A DNA stretch of 64,000 bases, taken from positions 206,882 through 270,881 of the forward strand of contig NW_026782491.1 of NCBI RefSeq assembly GCF_031769215.1, read 5' to 3'. A program made the translations under genes and the position numbers. The notes beneath the pieces were generated by a model. It saw only the letters and a list, made by a program, of their open reading frames with translations. It did not search any database and was not told the DNA's origin. This DNA comes from Ylistrum balloti. Taxonomy: Eukaryota. This document shows, in pieces, positions 60,765 to 62,920 of the stretch (positions within the stretch are counted from its first letter, which is position 1; every line of letters starts with the position of its first letter).

Positions 60765-61180
60765 TGAACTTGATAGTAAGGGGGTTTGGTAGTGATCCTA
60801 ATATTGAGGGGGTTTTAATAGTGATCCTAATAGTGAGGGGGTTTTGATAGTGATCACAATAGTGAGGGGGTTTTGATAGTGATCGTAATAGTGAAGGGAT
60901 TTTGTTAGTGATCCCAATAGTGAGGGGATTTTGATAGTGATCCTAATAGTGAGGAGATTTTGATAGTGATCGTAATAGTGAGGGGATTTTGATAGTAATC
61001 CTAATAGTGAGGGGATTTTGATAGTGATCGTAATAGTGAGGGGATTTTGATAGTGATCGTAATAGTGAGGGGATTTTGATAGTGATCCTAATAGTGAGGA
61101 GATTTTGATAGTGATCGTAATAGTGAGGGGGTTTTGATAGTGATCCTAATAGTGAGGGGATTTTGATAGTGATCCTAATA
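60765..61180. repeat. 29-bp satellite (gtgatcctaatagtgaggggattttgata), ~14 copies; left flank of the palindromic unit
   Basis: Direct tandem repeats with a cct/cgt alternation, giving a 58-bp higher-order unit. Confidence 0.9.
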
Positions 61181-61237
61181 CAAGGGGTCCAACCTAAACC
61201 GTAGGTCACGGCCTAACTATCCCCGGTCACAACCAAA

Positions 61238-61269
61238 ATGGCGGCGACCATCCGCTTCTCGACACAGCG
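61238..61269 (+). CDS. Predicted exon 1 inside the left arm (MAATIRFSTQR-) ending at CAGCG|GTGAGT
   Basis: Kozak CAAAATGGCG. A GTGAGT donor follows after 32 nt, giving phase 2. The same unit is present inverted in the right arm. Confidence 0.25.
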
Positions 61270-61745
61270 GTGAGTAAAATAAGTGTTTTGTCTGCTTACA
61301 GAGAACGTTCCTTATCACGTCAATATTGCGTTTCGGATCTAGAGGAATTTATCTTTATATTCGTGCAACGAATTCACAATATAACCCAGTCCTGTAAAAA
61401 TAAACGTGAAAAAACCTCAGTGTTTTGACAGTCAAAACTGGTATCGAGGTCGGTTTTCCTACTTATTTGACTAATATATTACATATCAAACATTTGTATG
61501 GTGTAACGATAACAGAATATGCAATATAAATCCTGAATTGTGTAAAAGAAATACGGGTACTGGTATATGAAACACCCACTGGTTCGATTTTTGTTAGTTT
61601 AGGAAAACCTTCGTCGGTCACGCCAAGTTTAGGACAATGTATAGTCTACCACAATGTCCATAAATGATCTTCTCACGCATGTTATCTTTGGTTAATTTCA
61701 GAAATGAAAAGAAAAAAAACGTAAACTGTCACTGTCCCTTTATAG

Positions 61746-62019
61746 GGCAAGGAAAAGGAAAATCGTGTTTACACCAAGTAGATCAACATCGAAGAAATTT
61801 AGACCAATAATCCGTTCTCCCGGTTTAATCCCACCAATCAGTTCATCTCCCTGCAGCCTAATATCACCAAAAGGACTACAATCATCTCGAAGTCCGACTG
61901 TTTTAAATGGCTCGCCCATTCGGTCACGTCGTTTTCGAAAAAGACTAAACTTGTCCTTTAGAAAACATAGTTCCAGCACTCACAAGAGTGACAATTGGGA
62001 AGATATAATTTGCCTGTAA
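61746..62019 (+). CDS. Predicted exon 2 in the loop (RARKRKIVFTPSRSTSKKFRPIIRSPGLIPPISSSP...RSRRFRKRLNLSFRKHSSSTHKSDNWEDIICL*); total ~101 aa
   Basis: Acceptor ctgtcactgtccctttatag at 61726-61745. Phase 2 + G gives Arg and continues in the frame of ORF 61765-62019. The protein is basic and S/P-rich and contains KIVF (an RVxF-type PP1-docking consensus). Confidence 0.25.
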
Positions 62020-62496
62020 AAATGGGAACGACGAAAATGACACCCTAACCTCTATTGGACCAACGAAGGTGTGCCTAATAAGTCCGAAATTGAAACAGTG
62101 TGTTATTCATAAGCCATAATTTGCAATTATGTTATACAATTCAGGATTTATATTGCATATTCTGTTATCGTTACACCATACAAATGTTTGATATGTAATA
62201 TATTAGTCAAATAAGTAGGAAAACCGACCTCGATACCAGTTTTGACTGTCAAAACACTGAGGTTTTTTCACGTTTATTTTTACAGGACTGGGTTATATTG
62301 TGAATTCGTTGCACGAATATAAAGATAAATTCCTCTAGATCCGAAACGCAATATTGACGTGATAAGGAACGTTCTCTGTAAGCAGACAAAACACTTATTT
62401 TACTCACCGCTGTGTCGAGAAGCGGATGGTCGCCGCCATTTTGGTTGTGACCGGGGATAGTTAGGCCGTGACCTACGGTTTAGGTTGGACCCCTTG

Positions 62497-62920
62497 TAAT
62501 AGTGAGTGGATTTTGATAGTGATCCTAATAGTGAAAGGATTTTGAAAGTGATCGTAATAGTGAAAGGATTTTGAAAGTGATCCTAATAGTGAGGAAATTT
62601 TGATAGTGATCGTAATAATGAGGGGATTTTGATAGTGATCCTAATAGTGAGGGGATTTTGATAGTGATCCTAATAGTGGAAGGATTTTGAAAGTGATCGT
62701 AACAGTGAGGGGATTTTGTTAGTGATCCTAATAGTGAGGGGATTTTGACAGTGATCCTAATAGTGAGGGGATTTTGATAGTGATCCTAATAGTGAGGGAT
62801 TTTTGAAAGTGATCCTAATAGTGAGGGGATTTTGAAAGTGATCCTTATAGTGAGGGGTTTTGAAAGTGAGGGGGTTTAAAGTGATATTGATAATGATGGT
62901 TTTTATAGTGATCTTGGTAG
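62497..62920. repeat. 29-bp satellite, right flank of the palindromic unit, in the same orientation as the left array, ~14 copies
   Basis: Direct tandem repeats (gtgatcctaatagtgaaaggattttgaaa variants). Confidence 0.9.

What the first reader, a model, noticed from the sequence alone, without database searches (positions are those of the whole stretch)
60765..62920. Perfect 361-bp inverted repeat with a 594-bp loop inside a satellite array; each arm carries an ATG exon and donor
Both arms (61181-61541 and 62136-62496) look base-for-base identical. The flanking 29-bp satellite runs in the same direct orientation on both sides, and the junctions show a 5-bp duplication (TAATA). This suggests insertion of a discrete unit rather than a local rearrangement. 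Each arm contains CAAAATGGCGGCGACC... (MAATIRFSTQR) ending in a GTGAGT donor. From the left arm this splices in phase to a loop ORF behind a good polypyrimidine acceptor, giving a ~101-aa basic S/P-rich protein with an RVxF-like KIVF motif and SP-basic repeats. If transcription reads into the right arm, the RNA would contain a 361-bp perfect hairpin. That is the architecture of hpRNA loci that yield endo-siRNAs. Possible interpretations are a foldback or TIR transposon that has captured a first exon, a hairpin-RNA locus directed against the parent gene of that exon, or a foldback assembly artefact.
Basis: partly seen in the sequence, partly recalled or inferred. Interest (0 to 1): 0.75.

Follow-up and report, generated by a model that had tools for sequence, protein, structure and literature searches.

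The report
Young long-inverted-repeat transposon in scallop minisatellite
This is most likely a recent insertion of a 1.3-kb non-coding "foldback"-type DNA transposon into a 29-bp minisatellite upstream of a scallop sulfurtransferase gene; the proposed small protein and hairpin-RNA gene have no support, so the feature is real but ordinary.

Summary
In this Ylistrum balloti (saucer scallop) window, 61181-61541 and 62136-62496 are perfect reverse complements (361/361). A weaker inverted repeat continues about 78 bp further inward. The 29-bp satellite has the same orientation on both sides. Its 27 units keep exact register across the insert only if one TAATA is removed, which means a 5-bp target-site duplication. 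The 1,316-bp insert also stands out in composition, with CpG o/e 1.16 against 0.34-0.65 in the flanks. These features indicate a genuine, young insertion of a non-autonomous DNA transposon with long terminal inverted repeats. They do not fit a foldback assembly artefact or a local rearrangement. The "gene" reading is not supported. The 101-aa product has no homologue among 5.8 and 1.84 billion proteins and no Pfam match. Its open frame is no longer than shuffled sequence often gives, and its codon usage is indistinguishable from spurious ORFs. No protein in the database shares even three 5-mers with MAATIRFSTQR, so no annotated parent gene was found. The ATG lies inside a YY1-type motif (AAAATGGCGGC). 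The hairpin-RNA reading is structurally possible, but bivalves are reported to lack the canonical endo-siRNA pathway. Genome copy number could not be tested. Interest is low.

The parts
60773..61180 (.). Left half of the 29-bp minisatellite (14 units; consensus GTGAGGGGATTTTGATAGTGATCCTAATA), the target of the insertion
   Evidence: TRF; units in register
61176..61180 (.). Left copy of the target-site duplication TAATA
61181..61541 (+). Left terminal inverted repeat (perfect arm, 361 bp). The outer 90 bp are 59% GC; the inner 271 bp are 33% GC.
61235..61245 (+). AAAATGGCGGC, a YY1-type motif that contains the proposed ATG. These are the only two occurrences in the window; the mirror copy is at 62432-62442 on the minus strand.
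   Evidence: the motif identity is from my own knowledge of the YY1 consensus
61238..61275 (+). Proposed 'exon 1' (ATG...CAGCG, 32 nt, phase 2) plus the GTGAGT donor. The mirror copy on the minus strand is at 62439-62402.
   Evidence: Sequence only; there is no evidence that it is used.
61542..61619 (+). Inner, degenerate continuation of the inverted repeat (about 70% complementary to 62058-62135)
61620..62057 (.). Unique centre of the element (438 bp)
61708..62019 (+). Open frame of 103 codons plus stop (S/R/K/P-rich). The proposed acceptor is at 61744-45. No homologue was found.
62058..62135 (-). Inner, degenerate inverted-repeat partner
62136..62496 (-). Right terminal inverted repeat (perfect arm, 361 bp)
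62497..62501 (.). Right copy of the target-site duplication TAATA
62502..62869 (.). Right half of the 29-bp minisatellite (13 units, same orientation and same register)
60265..60392 (-). Context: first coding exon of the neighbouring thiosulfate sulfurtransferase-like gene (XP_060079697.1). The satellite and the insert lie 0.4-2.5 kb upstream of its ATG.

Best explanation
A 1,316-bp non-autonomous class II (cut-and-paste) DNA transposon of the long-TIR, foldback type (61181-62496) inserted recently into a pre-existing 29-bp minisatellite. The site lies in the upstream region of a thiosulfate sulfurtransferase-like gene of the scallop Ylistrum balloti.

Shown: a discrete unit with inverted termini sits in an otherwise uninterrupted, same-orientation array. 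It is flanked by a 5-bp duplication of the target (TAATA). It encodes nothing recognisable, and its composition differs from the surroundings.

Inferred:
- A transposase supplied in trans by an unidentified autonomous relative made 5-bp staggered cuts at TAATA and joined the two identical ends. Gap repair then produced the duplication.
- The perfect identity of the outer 361 bp, next to a roughly 70%-identical inner repeat, means the arms were homogenised or copied from one another shortly before or during the last transposition. Template switching or gene conversion during gap repair could do this. It also means the insertion is young; the undepleted CpG content agrees.
- The ATG/GTGAGT 'exon' in each arm is most simply a YY1-type promoter or initiator motif followed by a chance or TE-borne donor. 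It does not look like a captured coding exon.
- The central open frame is probably non-coding.
For: - Perfect 361-bp arms, with a significant degenerate inner inverted repeat.
- All 27 satellite units are exactly 29 bp with no indel. Their register is restored by deleting the element plus one TAATA, and the reconstructed empty site GATCC-TAATA-GTGAG equals the many paralogous unit junctions in the same array.
- The flanks are in direct orientation.
- Element CpG o/e is 1.16, in the top 1% of 1316-bp windows, against 0.34-0.65 in the flanks.
- No coding capacity was detected: no Pfam hit in any ORF and no homologue in two very large protein searches.
- No protein carries the 'exon 1' peptide.
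- Minisatellites with 19-30-bp units are frequent in this window, so landing in one is unremarkable.
- DNA transposons and MITEs are abundant in bivalve genomes (PMC10294476).
Against: - Only one copy could be examined. No other copy lies in the 64-kb window.
- The superfamily is unassigned. A 5-bp duplication is typical of Transib and occurs in Ginger2 (PMC10045372), but the termini CAAGGGG...CCCCTTG do not resemble the Transib CAC... heptamer (from memory).
- No homology to the arms was found in about 63 kb of two other scallop genomes or in metagenome and viral scans.
- Perfect arm identity could be partly produced by assembly polishing.
Confidence: 0.78

Rival explanations
1. Hairpin-RNA locus. 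Transcription through both arms yields an RNA with a perfect 361-bp stem that is processed into small RNAs. These silence either a parent gene of the 'exon' or the active members of the same transposon family, in the manner of maize Mu killer.
For: The RNA would fold as predicted: -822 kcal/mol, with all 361 arm bases paired to their mirror. Each arm carries what looks like the 5' end of a transcription unit, a YY1-type motif plus ATG plus donor. This parallels Mu killer, whose arms are the 5' end of MuDR (my own knowledge). The element lies next to a promoter region.
Against: No target was found: no protein shares even three 5-mers with the exon peptide, and there is no other copy in the window. 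DICER2 and siRNA-class Argonautes are reported lost in Trochozoa including Bivalvia, and no endo-siRNA signature was seen in oyster small-RNA libraries (PMC11114477). No expression data are available. Any long-TIR transposon has this architecture without being a dedicated hpRNA gene.
Confidence: 0.06
2. A real two-exon protein-coding gene. Exon 1 lies in the left arm, and exon 2 runs 61746-62019. The product is a 101-aa basic, S/P-rich, possibly PP1-binding protein.
For: The donor GTGAGT matches the consensus. The acceptor has a 70% pyrimidine tract and is in phase, which gives a 101-aa ORF. The open frame of 103 codons is the longest in the element.
Against: There is no homologue at E<=1 among 5.8 billion proteins. 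The only hit among 1.84 billion representatives is a tandem-repeat translation matched in eight low-complexity stretches. There is no Pfam family at E<=10. Shuffled sequence reaches the ORF length in 8-15% of trials. Codon-usage score is -0.046 per codon; 21% of spurious ORFs score at least as high, while real exons score +0.07. The exact protein is absent from the collection although both neighbouring RefSeq proteins are present. KIVF is a 4-residue motif with no statistical weight.
Confidence: 0.05
3. Assembly artefact: a foldback or chimeric long read, or an over-polished near-repeat, creates a palindrome that does not exist in the genome.
For: Perfect palindromes are a known product of chimeric long reads (my own knowledge). 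Perfect identity of two arms can be exaggerated by polishing. Reads could not be inspected.
Against: A foldback chimera gives A-B-B'-A' with an inverted flank and little or no loop. Here both flanks are direct and in the same 29-bp register, with an exact 5-bp duplication. There are also a 438-bp unique centre and a degenerate inner repeat, and the insert differs in composition from the flanks.
Confidence: 0.04
4. A one-off, non-transposase insertion. A palindromic extrachromosomal fragment, for example the duplicated 5' end of a gene, is captured at a staggered double-strand break. Alternatively, it is a transposon-borne promoter and first exon now used by the neighbouring sulfurtransferase gene.
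For: The outer 90 bp of each arm look promoter-like: 59% GC with a YY1-type motif. The right-arm exon points toward the sulfurtransferase gene and ends in phase 2, the same phase as that gene's exon 1. Splicing to its exon 2 would therefore stay in frame (inference).
Against: No protein with the MAATIRFSTQR N-terminus exists in the database that holds this species' RefSeq proteins. The annotated product starts at MDNPSL. Phase agreement has a 1-in-3 chance. Exact inverted termini plus a fixed-length target duplication are the signature of transposition.
Confidence: 0.07

Closest known systems
Non-autonomous long-TIR / foldback-type DNA transposons (e.g. Drosophila FB and Galileo, D. virilis Tetris, long-TIR Tc3-type elements)
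   Same: Arms hundreds of bp long make up most of the element. There is a short non-coding centre, a flanking target-site duplication and no transposase. Tetris is also associated with satellite DNA (PMC4079207, listed).
   Different: The duplication is 5 bp, whereas FB, Galileo and P-type elements give 7-9 bp and Tc1/mariner gives TA (my own knowledge; PMC10045372 for several superfamilies). The arms contain no internal tandem repeats. Here the satellite is the target and not part of the element. Family copy number is unknown.
Transib superfamily (and Ginger2/TDD)
   Same: Length of the target-site duplication: 5 bp for Transib (my own knowledge) and 4 or 5 bp for Ginger2 (PMC10045372).
   Different: The termini CAAGGGG...CCCCTTG do not match the CAC-heptamer ends of Transib or the TGT...ACA ends of integrase-related elements (from memory, not tested against a library). 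Only one Transib element was found in a survey of mollusc genomes (PMC10294476).
Maize Mu killer and Drosophila hpRNA loci
   Same: Inverted duplication whose arms carry the 5' end of a transcription unit. The predicted RNA is a long perfect hairpin.
   Different: No target gene or active element has been identified, and no expression or small-RNA data exist. The host lineage is reported to lack DICER2 and siRNA Argonautes (PMC11114477). This element has clean transposon ends and a target duplication, so the hairpin potential is probably incidental.
Bivalve MITE/satellite associations (pearl, DTC84, Cg170-type elements)
   Same: A bivalve genome, a short non-autonomous inverted-repeat element and physical linkage with tandem repeats (PMC8268682 and PMC5139131, listed).
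   Different: In those families the tandem repeats lie inside the mobile element. Here the array is interrupted by the element, and its register is restored by removing it.

Membership tests
Class II TIR DNA transposon, non-autonomous | Terminal inverted repeats at both ends | tested here: met
   361/361 perfect, extended imperfectly to about 440 bp
Class II TIR DNA transposon, non-autonomous | Target-site duplication of fixed length flanking the ends; reconstructable empty site | tested here: met
   TAATA on both sides. Removing the element plus one TAATA restores the 29-bp register and the consensus unit junction.
Class II TIR DNA transposon, non-autonomous | No transposase gene within the element | tested here: met
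   No Pfam hit for any ORF; no homologue
Class II TIR DNA transposon, non-autonomous | Multiple dispersed copies in the genome and an autonomous partner | not testable with these tools
   No other copy in the window. Y. balloti genome DNA is not retrievable. Nothing was found in 63 kb of two other scallops.
Transib | 5-bp target-site duplication | tested here: met
   (symmetric 3-bp and 1-bp readings not excluded)
Transib | RSS-like CAC... heptamer termini and a RAG1-like transposase in autonomous copies | tested here: not met
   The termini read CAAGGGG. The consensus is from memory and no repeat library was available. No transposase is present.
hAT | 8-bp target-site duplication | tested here: not met
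   The last 8 bp on the left (TCCTAATA) differ from the first 8 bp on the right (TAATAGTG), and the array register allows only 5 extra bases. The terminal CAAGGGGTCC..AACC recalls hAT-type CAGGGGTCC..AACC ends, but that is memory only.
Tc1/mariner | TA target-site duplication | tested here: not met
   A TA duplication would require a 3-bp insertion in the target unit, yet 0 of 27 units carry any indel.
hpRNA / endo-siRNA locus | Long inverted repeat able to form an extended RNA hairpin | tested here: met
   -822 kcal/mol; all 361 arm positions paired
hpRNA / endo-siRNA locus | Arms homologous to a target gene elsewhere | tested here: not met
   No protein shares >=3 five-mers with the exon peptide; no second copy in the window. 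A genome-wide DNA search was not possible.
hpRNA / endo-siRNA locus | Transcript spanning both arms and 21-22-nt duplex small RNAs | not testable with these tools
   No expression data. The literature reports loss of DICER2 and siAGO in Bivalvia and no siRNA signature in C. gigas (PMC11114477).
Protein-coding gene (PP1-regulator-like) | Detectable homologues or domain; coding-type sequence statistics | tested here: not met
   (no true homologue). ORF length P=0.08-0.15. Codon usage within the spurious-ORF range. Not in the protein collection.

The most novel reading that the evidence does not exclude
The element could be a self-complementary derivative of a currently active scallop transposon, with both arms being the promoter and 5' end of that transposon. 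Transcribed from the adjacent sulfurtransferase promoter region or from its own YY1-type motifs, it would give a 361-bp perfect dsRNA that feeds a small-RNA silencing route. That would be a Mu-killer-like hairpin silencer in a lineage thought to have lost the canonical endo-siRNA pathway.
Probability: 0.05. Interest if true: 0.65.

Novelty: new member of a known kind. Interest (0 to 1): 0.2.

Why it matters
If the main reading is right, its value is mostly practical. It is a very clean single-copy example of a young DNA transposon in a little-studied scallop genome: perfect ends, an unambiguous 5-bp duplication and undecayed CpG. It could seed the definition of an uncharacterised family and its autonomous partner. 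It also suggests recent or ongoing cut-and-paste activity in Pectinidae, a group reported to be relatively poor in transposons. The insertion sits 0.4-2.5 kb upstream of a thiosulfate sulfurtransferase-like gene, so it might be a presence/absence polymorphism with regulatory effect. It does not open a new biological question unless small RNAs are shown to come from it.

Tried and rejected
- Homology of the 101-aa product. The word-indexed search of 5.8 billion proteins gave nothing at E<=1. Exhaustive HMMER over 1.84 billion representatives gave one hit, P0011, which is a translated tandem repeat matched in 8 low-complexity stretches and was rejected. Pfam gave nothing at E<=10.
- Parent gene of 'exon 1'. 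A 40-column profile (the 11-mer plus one real tail and X tails), calibrated locally to give E~0.1 for a perfect match, found no candidate sharing three 5-mers.
- More Y. balloti DNA.
- Other scallops. The M. yessoensis and P. maximus loci around the zinc-finger orthologue (L001, L002) contain no arm, satellite or sulfurtransferase homology.
- Exact scans of metagenome and viral contigs with arm 20-25-mers gave 0 hits.
- Rfam gave nothing at gathering score, and only chance-level bacterial sRNA matches at E<=5. No tRNA was found, so a SINE or snRNA origin was rejected.
- Subterminal repeats. Only a modest excess of CGGTCAC was seen, 4 of the window's 7, and there are no repeat families inside the arm. 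This is not enough to call transposase-binding sites.
- The bacterial promoter/terminator scan is irrelevant to a eukaryote and was below the shuffle expectation.
- Local inversion or palindromic duplication was rejected because the right flank is not inverted.
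Full report
**Source and context.** The window is nuclear DNA of the saucer scallop Ylistrum balloti. The 2,796-codon open frame at 31200-39590 is 100% identical to NCBI "uncharacterized protein LOC132559097 [Ylistrum balloti]", and its orthologues are in other Pectinidae. 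GC is 36.5% and CpG o/e is 0.69. There are no Rfam families at gathering score and no tRNAs. Minisatellites with 19-30-bp units are frequent: 2682-3437, 19305-20135, 25182-25381, 49155-49641, and the array in question.

**Check of the observation.**
- 61181-61541 and 62136-62496 are exact reverse complements, 361 of 361.
- The repeat does not stop there. The repeat finder and blastn extend it to 61619/62058 (445 nt, 94% overall).
- The inner 78-bp stretch on its own aligns with score 40, against a mean of 15 and a maximum of 35 in 1000 shuffles.
- The element is therefore a perfect outer repeat, a roughly 70%-identical inner repeat and a 438-bp unique centre.
- TRF finds the 29-bp array on both sides, in the same orientation, with 0% indels.
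- Written out in register, all 27 units are exactly 29 bp. The unit ending at 61180 (…GATCCTAATA) is followed, after the insert and a second TAATA, by a unit starting GTGAG at 62502.
- Deleting 61181-62501 therefore recreates a normal unit junction, identical to the many paralogous "empty sites" in the same array.
- The duplication is 5 bp. TAATA is almost its own reverse complement, so a symmetric 3-bp (AAT) or 1-bp reading with longer termini cannot be excluded from one copy.
- A TA (Tc1/mariner) duplication would need a 3-bp insertion in the target unit, which none of the 27 units shows. An 8-bp (hAT) duplication is excluded by the register.

**What it is.** Four properties point the same way.
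- It is a discrete unit with inverted ends.
- It carries a fixed-length target duplication.
- Its flanks are direct and in register.
- Its composition differs from the surroundings. CpG o/e is 1.16 for the element, reached by only 1% of 1316-bp windows (all overlapping it), against 0.34-0.65 in the flanking satellite and promoter DNA.

Together these are the signature of a transposase-mediated insertion of a mobile element. They do not fit a local rearrangement, which would invert a flank. They also do not fit a foldback assembly chimera, which would give A-B-B'-A' without a duplication or a sizeable unique loop.

The element has no recognisable coding capacity, so it is non-autonomous. The undepleted CpG and the identical arms indicate a young insertion. 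The sharp step from 100% to about 70% identity at 61541/61542 suggests that the outer arms were recently copied from one another by gene conversion or template switching during gap repair. This is inference. Polishing of the assembly could also contribute to the perfect identity.

The superfamily cannot be assigned. Five-bp duplications are characteristic of Transib (my own knowledge) and occur in Ginger2 (PMC10045372). The termini CAAGGGG…CCCCTTG resemble neither. They recall hAT-type CAGGGGTCC…AACC ends from memory, but the duplication length argues against hAT.

The decisive property, copy number in the genome, could not be tested:
- The window holds no other copy.
- Y. balloti DNA is not retrievable through the look-up tools.
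- 63 kb from two other scallops contain nothing related.
- Exact scans of metagenomic and viral contigs gave nothing.

**The proposed exon, splice and protein.** The ATG at 61238 lies inside AAAATGGCGGC, the textbook YY1-type motif (my own knowledge). The motif occurs in the window only in the two arms. The 32-nt "exon" ends in phase 2 before GTGAGT.

Of 39 AG dinucleotides downstream, four have a 70% pyrimidine tract. The one at 61744-45 gives the 101-aa product. The model is self-consistent but was selected after the fact. The evidence against a real gene is as follows:
- The open frame (103 codons) is reached or exceeded in 8-15% of dinucleotide shuffles.
- Its codon-usage log-odds is -0.046 per codon. 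This lies within the range of spurious ORFs from non-coding parts of the window (-0.136 ± 0.092; 21% score at least as high) and below real exons (+0.07 to +0.08).
- No homologue was found at E<=1 in the 5.8-billion-protein index.
- The single hit of an exhaustive HMMER search over 1.84 billion representatives is a translated tandem repeat matched in eight low-complexity stretches.
- Pfam gives nothing at E<=10.
- The exact 101-aa sequence is not in the 15-billion-protein collection, whereas both neighbouring RefSeq proteins are.

To test "captured first exon of a parent gene", I built a 40-column profile in which only MAATIRFSTQR is informative. It was calibrated locally to give E≈0.1 for a perfect match at that database size. 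The search found no protein sharing even three 5-residue words. No annotated scallop protein, host or transposase, therefore begins with this peptide. The KIVF "RVxF" match is a four-residue motif without statistical weight.

**The hairpin-RNA reading.** An RNA spanning the element would fold into a perfect 361-bp stem (-822 kcal/mol). The architecture of an hpRNA locus is therefore present, as it is for any long-TIR transposon. Against a dedicated function:
- No target was found.
- No expression data exist.
- A phylogenomic and small-RNA study concludes that DICER2 and siRNA-class Argonautes, and with them the canonical endo-siRNA pathway, were lost in Trochozoa including Bivalvia. It found no endo-siRNA signature in Crassostrea gigas libraries (PMC11114477).

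The most interesting version that remains open is a Mu-killer-like derivative, with arms equal to the 5' end of an active element. I give it about 5%.

**Surroundings.** On the minus strand, immediately left of the array, lies a seven-exon thiosulfate sulfurtransferase-like gene. Its exons are 60392-60265, 58368-58167, 57762-57658, 54618-54492, 53631-53533, 53367-53243 and 51049-50996.
- It has two Rhodanese domains (Pfam).
- It matches bovine rhodanese at E = 1e-43.
- My spliced model is an exact match to XP_060079697.1.
- A TATATAAAA lies about 145 nt upstream of its ATG.

The satellite and transposon therefore occupy roughly -0.4 to -2.5 kb of this gene. The right-arm "exon" points toward the gene and ends in the same phase as its exon 1, so splicing to exon 2 would stay in frame. 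That agreement has a one-in-three chance, and no such isoform exists in the protein database.

**Verdict.** The feature is real and correctly described. It is best explained as a young, non-autonomous long-TIR DNA transposon inserted into a minisatellite (confidence about 0.78). The protein-coding, captured-exon and hpRNA interpretations are not supported by any test I could run. An assembly artefact is unlikely. It is a new member of a known kind, and interest is low (0.2).

Noticed in passing
window 50996-60392, minus strand: Seven-exon thiosulfate sulfurtransferase-like (two-domain rhodanese) gene. My hand-spliced 279-aa model is identical to XP_060079697.1 of Ylistrum balloti. A TATATAAAA box sits at about 60533-60541. 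The satellite and the transposon lie 0.4-2.5 kb upstream of its ATG.
   Followed up: yes
window 62402-62439 (minus) versus exon 2 at 58368: The right-arm ATG 'exon' points toward the sulfurtransferase gene and ends in phase 2, like that gene's exon 1. Splicing to exon 2 would give an in-frame MAATIRFSTQR-EHVPNAS... chimera. Splicing to the AG at 60401 would instead give a 21-codon upstream ORF. No such protein is in the database.
   Followed up: partly
window 31200-39590 and 41396-42499, plus strand: Giant single exon (2,796 codons) plus a 367-codon exon of a multi-C2H2 zinc-finger protein (LOC132559097; ZNF462/REST-like Pfam hints). It is 64-73% identical in other scallops and about 30% in oysters.
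   Followed up: partly
window 58402-58742: (TGAC)n/(TCAA)n microsatellite of about 83 units inside intron 1 of the sulfurtransferase gene, directly upstream of the exon 2 acceptor.
   Followed up: no
window 2682-3437, 19305-20135, 25182-25381, 49155-49641, 56889-56981: Several further minisatellite arrays with 19-30-bp units, one of them with a 166-bp higher-order period. This region of the scallop genome is unusually rich in such arrays. None is related in sequence to the 29-bp array of the finding.
   Followed up: no
window 60773-62869: The satellite shows a variant gradient. GATAGTG units dominate to the left of the insert, GAAAGTG variants appear only to the right, and CCTAATA and CGTAATA units tend to alternate. 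This hints at a 58-bp higher-order structure.
   Followed up: no
window 61204-61231, 61615-61621, 61921-61927 and mirror copies: CGGTCAC/GGTCAC occurs repeatedly in the element: 4 of the window's 7 CGGTCAC sites, three of them independent. These may be subterminal protein-binding sites, but the numbers are too small to judge.
   Followed up: partly
window 24000-24269 and 29218-29584: Two nearly perfect two-copy tandem duplications (128-bp unit at 99% identity; 182-bp unit at 98%) in the region upstream of the zinc-finger gene.
   Followed up: no
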